Assembly (NCBI GenBank): GCA_020356025.1
Contig: CP070630.1
Span: 1,173,702 to 1,237,701 of the forward strand
Direction of reading: 5' to 3'
Length of the DNA: 64,000 bases
Origin: Dehalococcoidia bacterium
GTDB lineage: Bacteria; Chloroflexota; Dehalococcoidia; SM23-28-2
Shown here: piece by piece, positions 3,371 through 24,423 of the stretch
How positions within the stretch are numbered: the first letter of the stretch is position 1
How the letters are laid out: the number at the start of each line of letters is the position of its first letter
Translations under genes and position numbers: made by a program
Notes under the pieces: generated by a model
What the model saw: only the letters and a program-made list of their open reading frames with translations
What the model was told of the DNA's origin: nothing
The model's database searches: none

Positions 3371-4567
3371 CTATTCCGTCTTCATGAGGCCGAGGAGAAA
3401 GGCCACCAGCACGACATCGACGCCCACCACCATGAGGCTCTGCGCCAGGGCTCCTACCTGAGCTTCCTGGGGCGGGCTGTCCAGGGCAGGGGCAACGCCG
3501 AGGAAGACATACAGGCCTATCCCCGCCAGGATCAACGCTCCCGCCGCCACCAGGAAGGCTTCCAGGCTGAAGTGCTGCCGATACAGTCTGGACAAGCGAC
3601 TCTTGCCGATGATGCCTTTGCCTGAGGCAACGAGGTGAGCAGCCAATCCCAGGAGCAGGGCGTTGATCCCTACCACCAAGAGCATCGGCCCGACAAACAC
3701 CGCAGACCAGTGGGGCCAGGCGTCGGCGTTCCCGCGCGAGACCAGTAGGGCTGACGCCATCGCGATCGCCCCCATAAGGGAAAGGATTAGGCCTGGCACG
3801 GTGAAGACGTAGGCTGGCGTGGAGAGCATCAGGAAGCGCAGGTGTCGCCAGCCGTCGCGGAAGGTGTTCAGCTTGGCCTCCCCCACCCGCGGGAAGTAGG
3901 GTATGGGGACCTCAGCGACGCGCAGCCTTCGGCGCATCGCCTTGAGGATCATCTCCGAGGCGAATTCCATGCCGGTGGAGTGGAGCCCCAGGCGCTGGTA
4001 GGCTTCTCGGGTGAAGGCGCGCAGGCCGCACTGGCTGTCGCCCAGGCGGGCTCCGGTGAACGTCCGCAGTAGAAAGGTGATGACGGGTGTGCCGATGTAG
4101 CGGTGGCTCCAGGTCATCGCCCCCGGGCGGATGCCGCCAGCATAGCGGTTTCCCACCACCAAGTCGTACCCGTCACGCAGGGGTGCGATGAGGGGCTCAA
4201 GGTTGGTGAAGTCGTACGTATCATCGCAGTCGCCCATAATGATGTACTTGCCCTGGGCTTGGGGGACCCCCGTCAGGTAAGCGCGACCGTAGCCTCGGCG
4301 CGGCTCCTCGATCACCCTGGCTCCCGCCGCGAGGGCCAGCTCGCGGGAGCGATCGGTGGAGCCGTTGTCCACCACCAGAACCTCGCCCCTGTAGCCGGAC
4401 CTCTCCAGCCAGGCCATTGCCTTCTGCACGCAGATGGCGATGGATGCCTCCTCGTTAAGACAGGGCATTACGATGGAGATATCTAGCTGGCACTCCTCAG
4501 TCCCTGTCTCATCTACTGTCGCGGTGGTTGAGCCGCTGTCGGGCAGTACGGCTACGGCTTCCCTCAT
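3371..4567 (-). CDS. Glycosyltransferase family 2 with C-terminal membrane helices (polyprenyl-phosphate glycosyltransferase-like, DPM1/GtrB/ArnC architecture)
   Basis: GT-A motifs IVMPCLNEE, VVDNGSTDRS and MGDCDDTY, followed by several hydrophobic helices. AGGAGG lies 8 nt upstream of ATG 4567. The track start at 4576 is a GTG inside that SD. The SD overlaps the flippase stop codon. Confidence 0.85.
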   Translation of the reverse strand: MREAVAVLPDSGSTTATVDETGTEECQLDISIVMPCLNEEASIAICVQKAMAWLERSGYRGEVLVVDNGSTDRSRELALAAGARVIEEPRRGYGRAYLTGVPQAQGKYIIMGDCDDTYDFTNLEPLIAPLRDGYDLVVGNRYAGGIRPGAMTWSHRYIGTPVITFLLRTFTGARLGDSQCGLRAFTREAYQRLGLHSTGMEFASEMILKAMRRRLRVAEVPIPYFPRVGEAKLNTFRDGWRHLRFLMLSTPAYVFTVPGLILSLMGAIAMASALLVSRGNADAWPHWSAVFVGPMLLVVGINALLLGLAAHLVASGKGIIGKSRLSRLYRQHFSLEAFLVAAGALILAGIGLYVFLGVAPALDSPPQEAQVGALAQSLMVVGVDVVLVAFLLGLMKTE

Positions 4568-16220: not shown

Positions 16221-16340
16221 GTGGCCAATCAGGTGGGCAAGCGGTATCAATGCACCAAGTGCGGCACGGAGATGATCGTTACCAAGGGTGGCGAGGGAAA
16301 CCTCTCCTGCTGTGGCGAGCCCATGCAACTGAAGCAATAG
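16221..16340 (+). CDS. Desulforedoxin-like small Fe(Cys)4 protein, copy 1 (39 aa)
   Basis: Below the track size cutoff. GTG start with GGAGG 10 nt upstream. Sequence (M)ANQVGKRYQCTKCGTEMIVTKGGEGNLSCCGEPMQLKQ* matches the desulforedoxin pattern Y-x-C-x2-C-G...GG-x-G-x-L-x-C-C-G-E-x-M (D. gigas Dx as I remember it). Confidence 0.75.
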   Translation: MANQVGKRYQCTKCGTEMIVTKGGEGNLSCCGEPMQLKQ

Positions 16341-16353
16341 GGGGAGGTGGAGC

Positions 16354-16497
16354 ATGGCTAACCAGTTGGGTAAGCGATTTCAGTGCGAGAAGTGCGGGAC
16401 AGAGGTGCTGTGCATCAAGCCAAGCAATGGAAACGTCCATTGCTGCGGAGTGCCGATGAAGCTGCTGGAGCCGAAGGTTCTGCCGTCGGCTGACTAG
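16354..16497 (+). CDS. Desulforedoxin-like small Fe(Cys)4 protein, copy 2 (47 aa)
   Basis: GGGGGAGGTGG SD, then ATG. Sequence MANQLGKRFQCEKCGTEVLCIKPSNGNVHCCGVPMKLLEPKVLPSAD*. It is a paralogue of copy 1 with the same CxxC...CC spacing. Confidence 0.75.
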   Translation: MANQLGKRFQCEKCGTEVLCIKPSNGNVHCCGVPMKLLEPKVLPSAD

Positions 16498-16519: not shown

Positions 16520-16552
16520 AGGCCGCTGGGAATGCTCTCAGCGGCCTTTTTG
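16520..16552. terminator. Rho-independent terminator between convergent genes (clear for the plus strand, plausible for the minus strand)
   Basis: AGGCCGCUG-(10 nt loop)-CAGCGGCCU, a perfect 9-bp stem followed by UUUUUG. It lies 22 nt after the Dx-2 stop and 20 nt after the minus-strand FTR-like stop. Confidence 0.65.
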
Positions 16553-16572: not shown

Positions 16573-17001
16573 TTATGGCTTCTTGGGTGCGCGCTTGCTC
16601 TTGGGAAGCCTAGCTGCTTCCTCCGCGGCAGGGAAGAGGCTCTCTCCCAGAGGTGCCACCTCTCCCAGGGTGCTGGGCGCTATCTCCCCCGTCTCCTCGT
16701 AGCGGCGAAGAAACTCTTCGCTCACGAAGAACATTCATATGCAGAAGCCATCGCGGGCGATGTCCTCGTGATGCCTCTCGCAGGGGCAGATCTTCTTGCG
16801 ATCCTCCACGGGATCGCCGCTGAGGGTCATTCAGGGGCAGTAGAGGCGGCCGTGGTTGACGAGGTTCTTGGCCAGGCCCCGCTGGATGCTGTCCACGGTG
16901 TCCGCGAGGGGGAAGAACTGGTAGGGCCCACGCTCGACGTAGCGCTCGGACATGCGCTTGGCGCGCTCAAGGGCCTCCTCGAAGGTGACCGTCTTCTCCA
17001 T
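16573..17001 (-). CDS. Ferredoxin:thioredoxin reductase catalytic-subunit-like protein with two in-frame UGA codons (predicted Sec57 and Sec89)
   Basis: Absent from the track because it is split by TGAs. My codon-by-codon translation is MEKTVTFEEALERAKRMSERYVERGPYQFFPLADTVDSIQRGLAKNLVNHGRLYCP[TGA]MTLSGDPVEDRKKICPCERHHEDIARDGFCI[TGA]MFFVSEEFLRRYEETGEIAPSTLGEVAPLGESLFPAAEEAARLPKSKRAPKKP*. It reproduces the FTR CPC...CPC...CHC(M)LF layout. GAGAGGAG SD lies upstream of ATG 17001, and TATAAT sits at 17034..17039 on the minus strand. Confidence 0.7.
16705..16721 (-). promoter_or_regulatory. SECIS-like hairpin downstream of UGA-2 (16735..16737)
   Basis: mRNA GCGAAGA-GUU-UCUUCGC: perfect 7-bp stem, GU in the loop, also starting 13 nt after the UGA. 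Confidence 0.5.
16798..16817 (-). promoter_or_regulatory. SECIS-like hairpin downstream of UGA-1 (16831..16833)
   Basis: mRNA GCGAUCC-CGUGGA-GGAUCGC: perfect 7-bp stem, GU in the loop, starting 13 nt after the UGA. Confidence 0.5.
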
Positions 17002-17129
17002 AGTGCTCCTCTCTAGCCACGCAGATCGAGTCTATTATAGCCTCTCTTGGTGGGCAAAGAGCTTCCAACAATGCTAAGATGCTCCAGCCAGCGCAATCGA
17101 GGAAATGATTCCGCTGTAGGGGGATTGGC

Positions 17130-21976: not shown

Positions 21977-23083
21977 ATGGCTACGGCTGAATCGGCACCT
22001 TACCCGGCGATCTTCGAGGCGGTGTGTCCGGAGCGGGTGTCGCGCTGGAAGGTGCTGCTGCGCATCTTCCTGGCGATTCCGGTCCTCATATTCTGGGCGG
22101 TCGTGTCGTCAGCCGCGGACGCTGTGGTGCTGGGCTCGTGGCTGGCGATCATCGTCAGGCGGCGGATACCGCGCTGGCTGTTCGACTTCCAGGTGGCGCT
22201 CTATCGCTGGCAATACCGAGCGATGAGCTACGTTCTTCTGCTGACGGAGGCGTATCCGCCCTTCGAGGGCGACTACCCCATCGACTTCGACGTGCGCTAT
22301 CCGGAGCGGCTTATCCGCTGGAAGGTTCTCGTCTGGAAGGTCATCACCTCTATTCCCCACTTCATCCTTCTTTTCTTCCTGTGGATAGGCGCTCTGCTGG
22401 CAACCATTGTGGCGTGGTTCTACGCTCTCATTGCGGGGCGATATCCCAAGGGGCTGTTCGACTACGTGGTGGGGGTGATCCGCTGGAGCGCGCGGGTCAA
22501 CGCGTATGTTCTCTCCCTTACGGACGAGTATCCGCCCTTCAACCTGTCGGCGACGGCTGGGCCAGCAGGCGGGGACGCCTACCTCATCTCTTCCATCATC
22601 GGCTTTCTGCTGACGGGGGGAATCATCGCTGGAGGAGTCGTACTGGCAGTAACCCTGCCGGAGGATCTGGAGGTGGAGGTGAACTACGAGCGGTTGCAGG
22701 CGGGCGTGCCGGCTATGGGCGTGGAGGTCGGTGATGTGAGGGTGTCGATGCTTTCGGCGACCGACCCGCTGGCGGAGGAGGAGACGCTTCTGGAGCCGGA
22801 GAGCGGCAACCGGCTGATCATGTTCGAGTTCTCGATGCTGAACGATAGCTGGCGGGACGTCGAGATCAAGAAGTCGGACTTCAAGCTCAAGGACGAAGAA
22901 GGGGACAAGCACGACACCGAACTGGTGACGGTCGACGGTCACGCCGCGCCGGAGGAGGTGGAGGAGGACGAGCTGACGACAGTGCAGGTTGTGTTCGAGG
23001 TGCCCTCGGAGGTGGACCCGGAGCGGCTGGACTTCTCGCCGGGGTTCGCCTTCGCCAAGACGGTGAAGTACGTGTTCGAGTGA
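21977..23083 (+). CDS. DUF4389 membrane protein (two DUF4389 modules) with extra helix and C-terminal DUF4352-like beta domain
   Basis: Repeated ...RWK(V)L...IPH/IPV...AWF..L..GRYPKGLFD....RW..RVNAY...LTDEYPPF modules. The C-terminal part reads ...LIMFEFSMLNDSWRDVEIKKSDFKLKDEEGDKHD...VQVVFEVPSEVD. Confidence 0.75.
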   Translation: MATAESAPYPAIFEAVCPERVSRWKVLLRIFLAIPVLIFWAVVSSAADAVVLGSWLAIIVRRRIPRWLFDFQVALYRWQYRAMSYVLLLTEAYPPFEGDYPIDFDVRYPERLIRWKVLVWKVITSIPHFILLFFLWIGALLATIVAWFYALIAGRYPKGLFDYVVGVIRWSARVNAYVLSLTDEYPPFNLSATAGPAGGDAYLISSIIGFLLTGGIIAGGVVLAVTLPEDLEVEVNYERLQAGVPAMGVEVGDVRVSMLSATDPLAEEETLLEPESGNRLIMFEFSMLNDSWRDVEIKKSDFKLKDEEGDKHDTELVTVDGHAAPEEVEEDELTTVQVVFEVPSEVDPERLDFSPGFAFAKTVKYVFE

Positions 23084-23154: not shown

Positions 23155-23730
23155 ATGGCTACTGAAGGTGCTGCTTATCCCGTGACCTTCGATGTGGACC
23201 ACCCGGAACGCCTCTCGCGCTGGAAGATCTTCGTCAAGTGGCTTCTGGCCTTTCCCCACTACATTGTGCTGATGCTCTACGGCATCGCCTATTTCGTTAC
23301 GCTGATCATCGCCTGGTTCGCCATCCTGTTCACCGGCCGCTACCCACGGGGGCTGTTCGACTTCGCGGTGGGCCTGTTGCGCTGGAGCGCTCGCGTGAAT
23401 GTCTACACGAATCTCCTGCGGGACGAATATCCGCCGTTCGGTACCGGCGGCGACTACCCGGCGCGGCTGGAGGTTGAGTACCCGGAGCAGCTCTCGCGCT
23501 GGAAGATATTCGTCAAGTGGTTTCTGGCCATCCCCCACCTGATCATCCTCTACGGCTACGGCATCTTGGCCAACGCCATTACGCTCGTGGCTTTCTTCAT
23601 TATCCTGTTCACCGCGAGCTATCCGAAGGCCCTGTTCGATCTGGTCGTGGGCTACTACCGCTGGAACAATCGGGTCTACGCCTACGTGCTGCTGCTGACG
23701 GACGAATACCCGCCGTTCACCAACGCTTAG
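23155..23730 (+). CDS. DUF4389 membrane protein (two modules)
   Basis: YPVTFDVDHPERLSRWKIFVKWLLAFPHYIVL...AWFAILFTGRYPRGLFDFAVGLLRWSARVNVYTNLLRDEYPPF, then a second copy of the same module. AGGAGGGAG SD. Confidence 0.8.
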   Translation: MATEGAAYPVTFDVDHPERLSRWKIFVKWLLAFPHYIVLMLYGIAYFVTLIIAWFAILFTGRYPRGLFDFAVGLLRWSARVNVYTNLLRDEYPPFGTGGDYPARLEVEYPEQLSRWKIFVKWFLAIPHLIILYGYGILANAITLVAFFIILFTASYPKALFDLVVGYYRWNNRVYAYVLLLTDEYPPFTNA

Positions 23731-23802: not shown

Positions 23803-24423
23803 ATGGCTGATGAGGCTGTTGCATATCCCGTCACCTACGACGTCGAGCCTCAGATCGCTGAGCGGAACCGGCTGACGGTCGCCTTCCGGTTCATCCTCGC
23901 GATCCCGCACCTACTGCTCGTGGGAGGCCCGGGATTTGGGCTTGGGGTGGGCAGTGACCGGACAGGGGTCCTGGGAACGGTGGCCGCAGTCGCGGCGATC
24001 ATCAACTGGTTCATCATCGTGTTCACAGGGCGGGCCAACGAGGGCCTCCTGAGCCTGCAGCAGTACTACCTCCGCTGGCGGGCACGCGCGCTAGCCTATG
24101 AGGCCCTCCTGCGCGATGAGTATCCGCCCTTCGGCGACGGCGATTACCCGGTCTCGGCTGACTTCCCCGCCGTCATCGAGGGCAGGAACCGCTGGACGGT
24201 GGGCTTCCGGTTGCTGTTGGCTATTCCACAGGCGATAGTGCTCTTTTTCGTACTCATCGCCTGGGTGGTCACGGCCATCATAGGCTGGTTCGCCGTGCTC
24301 TTCACTGGTCGCTACCCCAATGGCCTCTGGCAGTTCGGCCAAGGTGCGATGAGGTGGACTTTGCGGGTCGAAGCATACCTTCTTTTGCTTCGTGACGAAT
24401 ATCCGCCTTTCTCCCTGCAATAG
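23803..24423 (+). CDS. DUF4389 membrane protein (two modules)
   Basis: YPVTYDVEPQIAERNRLTVAFRFILAIPH...FTGRANEGL...LLRDEYPPF, then ...GWFAVLFTGRYPNGLWQFGQGAMRWTLRVEAYLLLLRDEYPPF. Confidence 0.8.
   Translation: MADEAVAYPVTYDVEPQIAERNRLTVAFRFILAIPHLLLVGGPGFGLGVGSDRTGVLGTVAAVAAIINWFIIVFTGRANEGLLSLQQYYLRWRARALAYEALLRDEYPPFGDGDYPVSADFPAVIEGRNRWTVGFRLLLAIPQAIVLFFVLIAWVVTAIIGWFAVLFTGRYPNGLWQFGQGAMRWTLRVEAYLLLLRDEYPPFSLQ

What the first reader, a model, noticed from the sequence alone, without database searches (positions are those of the whole stretch)
16705..16817. Matching hairpins at an identical 13-nt distance after each in-frame UGA (SECIS-like)
After UGA-1 the mRNA reads AUGACCCUCAGCG (13 nt), then GCGAUCC-CGUGGA-GGAUCGC.
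- After UGA-2 it reads AUGUUCUUCGUGA (13 nt), then GCGAAGA-GUU-UCUUCGC.
- Both hairpins are perfect 7-bp stems, both loops contain GU, and both UGAs are followed by AUG.
- Bacterial SECIS elements are stem-loops placed shortly 3' of the UGA, with a conserved G/U in the apical loop roughly 16-37 nt downstream. These sit about 20 nt downstream.
- The repeated geometry at two sites in one short gene is hard to explain by chance. The amino-acid sequences they encode are unrelated, so the structure seems to be selected at the RNA level.
Basis: seen in the sequence. Interest (0 to 1): 0.75.

Follow-up and report, generated by a model that had tools for sequence, protein, structure and literature searches.

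The report
Two SECIS hairpins in double-selenocysteine FtrB
The two hairpins are real and look like the selenocysteine-insertion signals of a small iron-sulfur disulfide reductase whose two catalytic cysteines are both replaced by selenocysteine, but this "FtrB double-selenoprotein" family and its signals were already described in 2008 and are curated at NCBI.

Summary
On the minus strand one 142-codon gene (17001..16573) carries in-frame TGAs at 16833..16831 and 16737..16735. Each is followed 13 nt later by a perfect 7-bp hairpin with GU in the loop.

This is not chance. Perfect 7-bp hairpins start at 6e-4 of window positions. All 80 related species genomes fetched (Dehalococcoidia/SAR202) also have TGA at both sites and a hairpin at the same place. 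Synonymous codon positions inside the stems are nearly frozen (GGC 80/80, GAG 80/80 and 81/81, CTT 76/78), while loop and flanking codons vary freely. One clade rebuilt hairpin 2 in a register shifted by one base, at the cost of two amino-acid changes.

Both hairpins meet every structural criterion of the published bacterial SECIS model. The protein scores 217 bits on NCBIfam NF041072, "FtrB family double-selenoprotein" (cut-off 160). The UGAs align with the second Cys of the CPC and CHC motifs, the redox-active pair of ferredoxin:thioredoxin reductase. TGA is an ordinary stop elsewhere in the window.

The Sec machinery genes could not be checked.

The parts
16573..17001 (-). FtrB-family double-selenoprotein gene. 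It has 142 codons including two Sec-UGA codons: ATG at 17001..16999 and TAA stop at 16575..16573. A mechanical ORF list splits it into pieces of 56, 31 and 53 aa.
   Evidence: ORF pieces. Pfam PF02943 E=3e-18 spanning both UGAs. NCBIfam NF041072 FtrB_double_U, 217.2 bits against a cut-off of 160. Codon GC pattern is coding-like on both sides of each TGA.
17006..17013 (-). Shine-Dalgarno-like GAGAGGAG, ending 4 nt upstream of the ATG.
   Evidence: Read directly from the sequence. Its function is inferred.
16831..16833 (-). UGA-1, predicted Sec57, in the motif C-P-U. It aligns with the second Cys of the first CPC motif of FTR catalytic subunits.
   Evidence: TGA in 81/81 sequences. Alignment to PDB chains 4tpu_A, 7pwe_A and 7bzk_A.
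16798..16817 (-). SECIS-like hairpin 1. The 5' arm is GCGAUCC (16817..16811), the loop is CGUGGA (16810..16805) and the 3' arm is GGAUCGC (16804..16798). The loop G at 16809 is invariant.
   Evidence: 94.5% of cells paired across 75 distinct sequences. Stem codons are frozen: GGC 80/80, GAG 80/80, CGC 76/81. Loop codons CCN and GUN vary freely. G at +24 is invariant although the residue varies among V, D, G, A and E, all encoded GNN. Hairpin energy is -12.0 kcal/mol.
16735..16737 (-). UGA-2, predicted Sec89, in the motif C-I-U. It aligns with the second Cys of the CHC motif of FTR catalytic subunits.
   Evidence: TGA in 81/81 sequences. Alignment to PDB chains.
16705..16721 (-). SECIS-like hairpin 2. 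The 5' arm is GCGAAGA (16721..16715), the loop is GUU (16714..16712) and the 3' arm is UCUUCGC (16711..16705). If the closing A-U pair opens, the loop becomes AGUUU. G16714 and U16713 are invariant.
   Evidence: It is the MFE structure. 93.1% of cells are paired. Stem codons are frozen: AGC 76/81, GAG 81/81, CUU 76/78, CGC 74/81. L043, L045 and L047 rebuild a perfect 7-bp stem shifted by one base, with E-to-S and L-to-A changes.
16693..16731 (-). Possible lower helix around hairpin 2, pairing +6..+14 with +36..+44. Only moderately supported.
   Evidence: Predicted in the 54-nt fold. 83.4% of cells are paired across species, mostly with one-sided changes and with 1 pair compensatory. Inconclusive.
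16521..16546 (.). GC-rich palindrome GGCCGCUG(10 nt)CAGCGGCC, flanked by T-runs on both strands. It lies between the FtrB gene and the convergent desulforedoxin-like genes and is probably a bidirectional terminator.
   Evidence: Read from the sequence. The terminator scan did not call it because the loop is longer than 8 nt. Its function is inferred.

Best explanation
The two hairpins are bacterial SECIS elements. Each lies inside the coding sequence about 13 nt after an in-frame UGA and presents a G-U in a small apical loop about 20 nt downstream.

Inferred mechanism, from the established E. coli and Moorella model: SelB carrying GTP and Sec-tRNA(Sec) binds each hairpin. It delivers Sec when the UGA reaches the ribosomal A site and so outcompetes RF2. 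The ribosome then melts the hairpin and reads on.

The product is one 142-residue FtrB-type [4Fe-4S] disulfide reductase. Both residues of its redox-active pair are selenocysteine: the second Cys of the CPC motif and the second Cys of the CHC motif (here CPU and CIU). It presumably cycles through a diselenide next to the cluster.

Shown here:
- the anatomy of both sites;
- conservation of both UGAs and both hairpins in 81 species;
- RNA-level selection on the stem nucleotides;
- family membership;
- ordinary use of UGA as a stop elsewhere in the window.

Inferred, not shown:
- SelB binding;
- actual Sec insertion;
- diselenide chemistry.
For: 1. The sequence and the two perfect 7-bp stems are as described and are far above chance.
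2. TGA is present at both positions in the window and in all 80 GTDB species loci kept, out of 198 relatives found. All are Dehalococcoidia, SAR202 or other Chloroflexota.
3. Every one of the 81 sequences folds a hairpin at the same place at both sites.
4. Codon entropy for 4- and 6-fold codons is 0-0.51 bits in the stems and 1.07-2.37 bits outside them (exact MWU p=2.4e-5). CUU, which makes up no more than 4% of codons at the two other conserved Leu positions, is 76/78 in stem 2. GAA is preferred over GAG only where an A is needed to pair.
5. The loop G is invariant at both sites. At site 1 the residue varies among V, D, G, A and E, all GNN codons.
6. Stem 2 is rebuilt in a shifted register with two coupled amino-acid changes in L043, L045 and L047. 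Stem 1 is extended to 11 bp by coupled Ser AGC-to-UCG and Lys-to-Leu AAG-to-CUG changes in L029 and L078.
7. All four criteria of the bSECIS consensus are met.
8. NCBIfam NF041072 "FtrB family double-selenoprotein" scores 217 bits against a cut-off of 160. The GOS paper PMC2398784 reported this 2-Sec FTR homologue and a predicted SECIS.
9. The UGAs align with the second Cys of the CPC and CHC motifs in solved FTR-type structures.
10. TGA terminates 18 of 63 crude gene calls in the window, including rpsC just before rplP. No other coding-like in-frame TGA exists in the window.
11. In 44 of the 55 more distant loci, a neighbouring glutaredoxin-like gene has its own in-frame UGA (UGPC motif) and a hairpin of the same design, also with frozen synonymous sites. 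This is independent evidence that the lineage decodes Sec.
Against: - No selA, selB, selC or selD gene was seen. There is no tRNA in the 64-kb window, no tRNA-Sec in the flanks of the 60 loci scanned (L001-L060), and none of ten window ORFs tested is a sel gene. The rest of the genome is not available.
- Fixed-column covariation statistics are flat for site 1: no pair changes on both sides, and the observed values equal the shuffles. The stem sequence is almost invariant, so the support comes from conservation, not from classical covariation.
- 10 and 18 of the 75 distinct sequences carry an A.C mismatch at one of the two central A-U pairs of stem 1.
- Two close relatives with Cys (TGC) at site 1 still keep hairpin 1. 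The expected decay of an unneeded SECIS is therefore not seen, although these relatives are about 90% identical and probably converted recently.
- No Rfam family matches the hairpins.
Confidence: 0.9

Rival explanations
1. The hairpins are a by-product of a very conserved amino-acid sequence (GDPxEDRK and VSEEFLR) and have no RNA function.
For: - The peptide segments after both UGAs are nearly invariant in the family.
- With the protein sequence fixed, 1-4% of random synonymous recodings already give a 7-bp stem.
- Hairpin 1 persists in two relatives that have Cys at site 1.
Against: - Synonymous positions that pair are frozen: GGC 80/80, GAG 80/80 and 81/81, CUU 76/78, AGC 76/81.
- The same amino acids elsewhere in the gene, and the loop codons, use all their codons (p=2.4e-5).
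- One clade changes two otherwise invariant residues together so that a shifted 7-bp stem is kept.
- The loop G stays fixed while the encoded residue varies.
Confidence: 0.03
2. UGA is decoded here as something other than selenocysteine. One option is a lineage-wide code change (UGA read as Trp or Gly). Another is Cys insertion by a SelC-like tRNA(Cys) carried by a SelB-type factor, which would still use the hairpins.
For: - Public gene callers translated these UGAs as W in P0001 and P0004-P0011.
- The tRNA set and the sel genes of the organism could not be examined.
- SelC-like tRNA(Cys) genes have been proposed in some bacteria (my recollection of Mukai et al. 2017, not checked here).
Against: - TGA ends 18 of 63 gene calls in the window, including rpsC two codons before the rplP start. 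No other coding-like in-frame TGA occurs in the window. A general code change is therefore excluded, and the W calls are table-4 artefacts on short contigs.
- The UGAs sit only at the two redox-active Cys positions, the classic Sec/Cys pair signature.
- The family is curated as a selenoprotein.
Confidence: 0.04
3. The locus is three separate small ORFs coupled by UGA-AUG termination-reinitiation, or a decaying pseudogene, and the hairpins act as pause or coupling signals.
For: - Both UGAs are followed directly by AUG, in 81/81 sequences at site 1 and 80/81 at site 2.
- Gene callers report the pieces as separate ORFs (P0013-P0015).
Against: - The three pieces together make one FTR catalytic domain. 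Its four cluster-ligand Cys lie in pieces 1 and 2, and pieces 2 and 3 each start directly after one of the predicted Sec residues.
- Both TGAs and the frame are conserved in 81 species, with coding-type substitution patterns on both sides. This excludes a pseudogene.
- The neighbouring Sec-glutaredoxin-like gene has UGA-GGC, so AUG is not a general requirement.
Confidence: 0.01
4. At site 1 the functional structure is not the reader's 7-bp stem but the longer imperfect hairpin that is the MFE of the single sequence. It pairs +5..+16 with +22..+33 and has the loop CGAUC.
For: It is the minimum-free-energy fold of the 41- and 54-nt segments in this window.
Against: - Across species only 78% of its cells pair, and four of its ten pairs are broken in 24-44 of 75 sequences.
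Confidence: 0.04

Closest known systems
FtrB family double-selenoprotein (NCBIfam NF041072), the FTR-homologue selenoprotein of Zhang and Gladyshev 2008 (PLoS Genet, PMC2398784)
   Same: - Same domain, and the same two Sec positions (CxU twice) at the redox-active pair.
- SECIS predicted downstream of UGA.
- The window protein scores 217 bits against a cut-off of 160 over the full model (positions 1-121 of 121).
- The family is listed in the 2022 and 2026 reviews.
   Different: - Nothing essential differs.
- Added here: 81-species evidence for both hairpins, their consensus, and the register shift in one clade.
- Also added: the gene neighbours, which are desulforedoxin-like genes in this clade and a Sec-containing NrdH/YruB-like redoxin in others.
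Bacterial SECIS elements (E. coli fdhF/fdnG type; bSECIS consensus of Zhang and Gladyshev 2005)
   Same: - Located inside the ORF, immediately 3' of UGA.
- A stem-loop with G followed by U in the apical loop, at +23/+24 nt. In E. coli fdhF these are G23 and U24 (my recollection).
- All four criteria of the consensus model are met.
   Different: - A compact 7-bp perfect stem without the bulged U of fdhF.
- Two elements sit 96 nt apart in one short gene.
- Both share the same four basal pairs (GCGA/UCGC).
- No Rfam model matches them.
Ferredoxin:thioredoxin reductase catalytic subunit (Pfam PF02943; PDB 7bzk) and the archaeal/bacterial FTR-like enzymes 4tpu and 7pwe
   Same: The CPC...CPC...CxC cysteine framework is shared. 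Four Cys bind the [4Fe-4S] cluster and two form the redox-active pair. Matches: E=4.5e-11 to 4tpu_A, 4e-10 to 7pwe_A and 9e-4 to 7bzk_A.
   Different: - Both redox-active Cys are Sec.
- The His of the CHC motif is Ile (CIU).
- Met follows each Sec.
- There is no fused rubredoxin domain. 4tpu is deposited under the name "Rubredoxin". By my recollection it is the M. acetivorans FDR, with a rubredoxin domain fused to the FTR-like domain.
- No variable subunit is evident.
Diselenide or multi-Sec redox proteins (for example SelL with a UxxU motif, cited as ref. 40 in PMC2398784)
   Same: Two Sec residues are predicted to form the redox couple.
   Different: The fold is unrelated. Here the pair sits next to an Fe-S cluster, and the two Sec are 32 residues apart, each with its own SECIS.

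Membership tests
Bacterial SECIS (bSECIS consensus model) | Apical loop of 3-9 nt on an upper stem of 4-16 bp | tested here: met
   Site 1 has 7 bp and a 6-nt loop. Site 2 has 7 bp and a 3-nt loop, or 6 bp and a 5-nt loop. Criteria taken from PMC13188914.
Bacterial SECIS (bSECIS consensus model) | A G in one of the first two loop positions, usually followed by G or U | tested here: met
   The site 1 loop is C-G-U-G-G-A and the site 2 loop is G-U-U (or A-G-U-U-U). The G is invariant in 81/81 at both sites. The following U is 56/81 at site 1 and 81/81 at site 2.
Bacterial SECIS (bSECIS consensus model) | [quoted passage not shown] | tested here: met
   20 nt at both sites in the window.
Bacterial SECIS (bSECIS consensus model) | MFE of -7.5 kcal/mol or lower | tested here: met
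   -12.0 kcal/mol (site 1) and -12.3 kcal/mol (site 2) for the 28-nt segments in the window. The family range is -7.3 to -20.6, and a few relatives are borderline.
Bacterial SECIS (bSECIS consensus model) | Binds SelB and is required for Sec insertion at the upstream UGA | not testable with these tools
   This needs a reporter assay, SelB binding assay or mass spectrometry.
FtrB family double-selenoprotein (NF041072) | Full-length HMM score above the curated cut-off (160 bits) | tested here: met
   217.2 bits, E=3.5e-65, model positions 1-121 of 121 (U entered as C).
FtrB family double-selenoprotein (NF041072) | Two in-frame UGA codons at the positions of the redox-active Cys pair | tested here: met
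   CP-UGA and CI-UGA align with the second Cys of the CPC and CHC/CYC motifs in 7bzk, 4tpu and 7pwe. Both are conserved in 81/81 sequences.
FTR catalytic subunit domain (Pfam PF02943) | Domain match above the gathering score, with the four cluster-ligand Cys present | tested here: met
   66.3 bits against a cut-off of 22. C55, C72, C74 and C87 are invariant in the alignment.
Sec-decoding organism | selA, selB, selC (tRNA-Sec) and selD present in the same genome | not testable with these tools
   None was found in the 64-kb window or in the locus flanks scanned. Indirect support comes from a second UGA-containing redoxin gene with its own hairpin in 44 related genomes.

The most novel reading that the evidence does not exclude
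The double-Sec FtrB may be one link of a dedicated selenium-based electron relay that has not been described as a unit.

- In 44 of 55 SAR202-type relatives, an uncurated Sec-containing NrdH/YruB-like redoxin (UGPC motif) lies next to it: directly downstream on the same strand in 42, upstream on the opposite strand in 2. This would be its likely substrate.
- In the window's own clade the gene instead lies beside one or two desulforedoxin-like Fe(Cys)4 proteins. These could be the electron donor, echoing the rubredoxin domain fused to the FTR-like domain in 4tpu.
- All three UGAs would be served by one lineage-specific mini-SECIS: a 7-bp stem, an N-G-U-N-N loop, and the G at +23 to +26.
Probability: 0.3. 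Interest if true: 0.45.

Novelty: already known. Interest (0 to 1): 0.22.

Why it matters
The practical point is annotation. Standard gene callers split this gene into three ORFs or translate the UGAs as Trp. Public protein databases hold such products.

Biologically, the enzyme would carry a diselenide beside a [4Fe-4S] cluster, and as far as I could find this has never been studied biochemically. The family is widespread in Dehalococcoidia and SAR202, with 198 species genomes matching.

The dense comparative set gives a clean example of an RNA signal constraining codon choice, and even amino-acid choice, inside a coding region. None of this changes what is already known about the family.

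Tried and rejected
- **Fixed-column covariation, site 1.** The counts were uninformative. No pair changes on both sides and the observed values equal the shuffles, because the stem sequence is almost invariant. I used synonymous-site entropy instead.
- **Alternative fold, site 1.** The MFE fold was tested and rejected on comparative pairing.
- **Shifted register, site 2.** Applied to all sequences it pairs only 49% of cells. It applies to one clade only.
- **Natural control.** Two relatives with Cys at site 1 (P0002 and P0003, loci L082 and L081) still carry hairpin 1. They are too close (about 90% identity) to be informative.
- **Rfam.** No match at the gathering thresholds over the window, and only noise below them around the gene.
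- **tRNA-Sec.** None in the window or in the flanks of 60 loci.
- **sel genes.** NCBIfam scan of ten window ORFs found none.
- **Other selenoprotein genes in the window.** Scans for coding-like in-frame TGAs and for TGA plus a SECIS-like hairpin found only the two FtrB sites. The other same-frame TGA junctions are ordinary stops between adjacent genes, such as pyrG/transaldolase and rpsC/rplP.
- **Literature.** A search for the M. acetivorans FDR paper did not retrieve it, so that comparison rests on memory and on the PDB match.
- **Not attempted.** Structure prediction was skipped because the tool gives no inter-atomic distances. A covariance-model search was skipped because the regex and fold scans already covered the window.

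Full report
**Anatomy**

On the minus strand a single reading frame runs from ATG 17001..16999 to TAA 16575..16573. A GAGAGGAG Shine-Dalgarno-like sequence lies upstream. The frame is interrupted by TGA at 16833..16831 and at 16737..16735.
- After UGA-1 come 13 nt, then GCGAUCC / CGUGGA / GGAUCGC (16817..16798).
- After UGA-2 come 13 nt, then GCGAAGA / GUU / UCUUCGC (16721..16705).

A mechanical ORF list reports three pieces of 56, 31 and 53 aa.

**What the gene is**

With the two UGAs read as Cys, the 142-residue product matches Pfam PF02943, the ferredoxin-thioredoxin reductase catalytic chain, across both sites (E=3e-18). It scores 217.2 bits on NCBIfam NF041072, "FtrB family double-selenoprotein" (cut-off 160, full model length).

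Alignments to solved FTR-type proteins (4tpu_A, 7pwe_A, 7bzk_A) place UGA-1 on the second Cys of the first CPC motif. They place UGA-2 on the second Cys of the CHC/CYC motif. By established knowledge of FTR, these two residues form the redox-active disulfide. The other four Cys bind the [4Fe-4S] cluster. The GOS paper says the same about its 2-Sec FTR read.

**Is it more than chance?**

Perfect 7-bp hairpins with loops of 3-8 nt start at 6e-4 of positions in this window. Two at one given offset behind two chosen codons is about 4e-7.

A stricter null keeps the protein sequence and redraws synonymous codons from the window's own usage. It yields a stem of 7 bp or more in 4.3% (site 1) and 1.3% (site 2) of 5000 recodings. 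The peptide sequence therefore predisposes to the hairpins, but it does not explain them.

**Comparative evidence**

A scan of one genome per GTDB species found 198 relatives. The best 80 were kept, and all are Dehalococcoidia, SAR202 or other Chloroflexota MAGs. All 80, like the window, have TGA at both positions, and the two TGAs are always 96 nt apart. Ungapped alignments of the 60 nt starting at each UGA were built (A2 and A3).

Site 1:
- The alternative MFE fold of the single sequence is paired in only 78% of cells, and several of its pairs are broken in a third to a half of the sequences.
- Classical covariation is absent because the stem hardly varies.

Site 2:
- The stem is paired in 93.1% of cells.

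The informative signal is at synonymous sites.
- In stem 1: Gly is GGC in 80/80, Glu is GAG in 80/80, and Arg is CGC in 76 and CGU in 5.
- In stem 2: Ser is AGC in 76/81, Glu is GAA in 66/78 (against the family's GAG preference), the next Glu is GAG in 81/81, Leu is CUU in 76/78 (CUU is no more than 4% of codons at the two other conserved Leu positions), and Arg is CGC in 74/81.
- Loop codons (CCN, GUN) and the same amino acids elsewhere in the gene use all their codons.
- For 4- and 6-fold codons, entropy is 0-0.51 bits in the stems and 1.07-2.37 bits outside them, with no overlap (exact Mann-Whitney p=2.4e-5). For 2-fold codons the trend is weaker (p=0.08).

The loop G is invariant at both sites. 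At site 1 the encoded residue varies among V, D, G, A and E, all of which are GNN codons.

Some clades changed the protein in ways that keep or lengthen a hairpin.
- L043, L045 and L047 replace AGCGAA...CUUCGC with UCGAGC...GCUCGA. This gives a perfect 7-bp stem shifted by one base with loop AGUU, at the cost of E-to-S and L-to-A changes in otherwise invariant residues.
- L029 and L078 make a partial version of the same change.
- At site 1, L029 and L078 extend the helix to 11 bp. They do this through coupled Ser AGC-to-UCG and Lys-to-Leu (AAG-to-CUG) changes.
- Every one of the 81 sequences folds a hairpin at the same place at both sites.

**Comparison with the SECIS definition**

The published bacterial consensus is given in the Fig. 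2A legend of PMC13188914. It requires four things:
- a 3-9 nt loop on a 4-16 bp stem;
- a G in the first two loop positions, mostly followed by G or U;
- 16-37 nt between the UGA and the loop;
- an MFE of -7.5 kcal/mol or lower.

Both sites meet all four. The gap is 20 nt. The loops are C-G-U-G-G-A and (A)-G-U-U-(U). The energies are -12.0 and -12.3 kcal/mol.

The conserved quantity is the position of the loop G (+24 and +23), not the 13-nt gap to the base of the stem. No Rfam family matches the hairpins.

**Alternative readings of UGA**

TGA is an ordinary stop in this window. It ends 18 of 63 crude gene calls, including rpsC two codons before the rplP start and pyrG. No other coding-like in-frame TGA exists in the window. 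A code change is therefore excluded.

Public proteins of this family with W at both sites (P0001, P0004-P0011) are artefacts of translation table 4. A pseudogene is excluded by the 81-species conservation.

Three separately translated peptides coupled by UGA-AUG are implausible, because the pieces together form one Fe-S domain. However, the near-invariant AUG after each UGA remains unexplained. Cys-type homologues have R, A, T or M there, and the neighbouring Sec-redoxin gene has GGC there.

**What could not be shown**

There is no tRNA gene in the window and no tRNA-Sec near the related loci. No sel gene was found among the ten ORFs tested.

Indirect support for Sec decoding in the lineage comes from 44 of the 55 more distant loci. 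There, a glutaredoxin/NrdH/YruB-like gene carries its own in-frame UGA (motif UGPC). In 42 of them it lies directly downstream of FtrB. It has a 7-bp hairpin (GUGAAAG-UGUAY-CUUUCAC), again with frozen synonymous sites and an invariant loop G-U.

The literature records Sec-decoding Chloroflexi.

**Prior knowledge**

Zhang and Gladyshev (PLoS Genet 2008, PMC2398784) reported FTR-homologue selenoproteins from the GOS metagenome. One read had two Sec at the two redox-active Cys positions, and they showed a predicted SECIS. The family is listed in the 2022 and 2026 reviews, the latter recording two Sec residues and model NF041072. It has a curated NCBIfam equivalog model.

**Verdict**

The additions made here are modest:
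- multi-species proof of RNA-level selection on both hairpins;
- the register shift in one clade;
- a shared mini-SECIS design;
- the gene-neighbourhood links described above.

Noticed in passing
window 16221..16340 (+) and 16354..16497 (+): Two tandem small genes (39 and 47 aa) encode desulforedoxin-like Cys4 proteins (CxxC...CC), convergent with the FtrB gene. Both fall below the TIGR00319 cut-off (28.9 and 17.6 bits against 36). At least one such gene lies next to FtrB in 21 of the 25 closest loci, L001-L025, and in L081. None is present in the more distant loci. They may be the electron donor, by analogy with the rubredoxin domain fused in 4tpu.
   Followed up: partly
L027, L032-L037, L039-L042, L044, L046, L049-L077, L079, L080 (for example L042, TGA at 3483): A gene of about 85 aa for a glutaredoxin/NrdH/YruB-like protein has an in-frame TGA in a UGPC motif (..VYTSxG-U-GPCHMVKVYLSRKG..). 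In 42 loci it lies directly downstream of FtrB, and in 2 loci it is divergent. All 44 have TGA and none has Cys. It has its own conserved 7-bp hairpin with loop UGUAY. It falls below the curated cut-offs of all NCBIfam Grx and Uxx-star models (best 69 bits against 88.6)..
   Followed up: partly
whole window (63 crude gene calls): TAG is the dominant stop codon (41 TAG, 18 TGA, 4 TAA), including most ribosomal-protein genes at 43.5-63 kb. This is unusual for a 63.5% GC bacterium, where TGA usually dominates (my general knowledge). The gene calls are crude, based on GC3.
   Followed up: no
window 21977..23083, 23155..23730 and 23803..24423 (+): Three tandem ORFs share an N-terminal motif (A.YP.T[FY]DV...ER.SRWK) and look like paralogues. 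The first has no NCBIfam match at E<=1e-5.
   Followed up: no
public protein ids P0001 and P0004-P0015: Database entries for this family are either translated with Trp at both UGAs (table-4 calls on short contigs) or cut into fragments at the UGAs. One fragment is mis-named "sugar phosphate isomerase/epimerase".
   Followed up: yes
L081 565..567 and L082 596..598: Two metagenome relatives (about 90% identical) have TGC (Cys) instead of TGA at site 1, but keep TGA at site 2 and keep hairpin 1 intact. These are either recent Sec-to-Cys conversions or sequence variants.
   Followed up: yes
window 16830..16828 and 16734..16732 (-): AUG (Met) directly follows both Sec-UGAs, in 81/81 species at site 1 and 80/81 at site 2. 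Cys-type FTR homologues have R, A, T or M there, and the neighbouring Sec-redoxin has GGC. The reason is unknown: it could be a protein-level requirement, a UGA context effect, or a fallback restart.
   Followed up: partly
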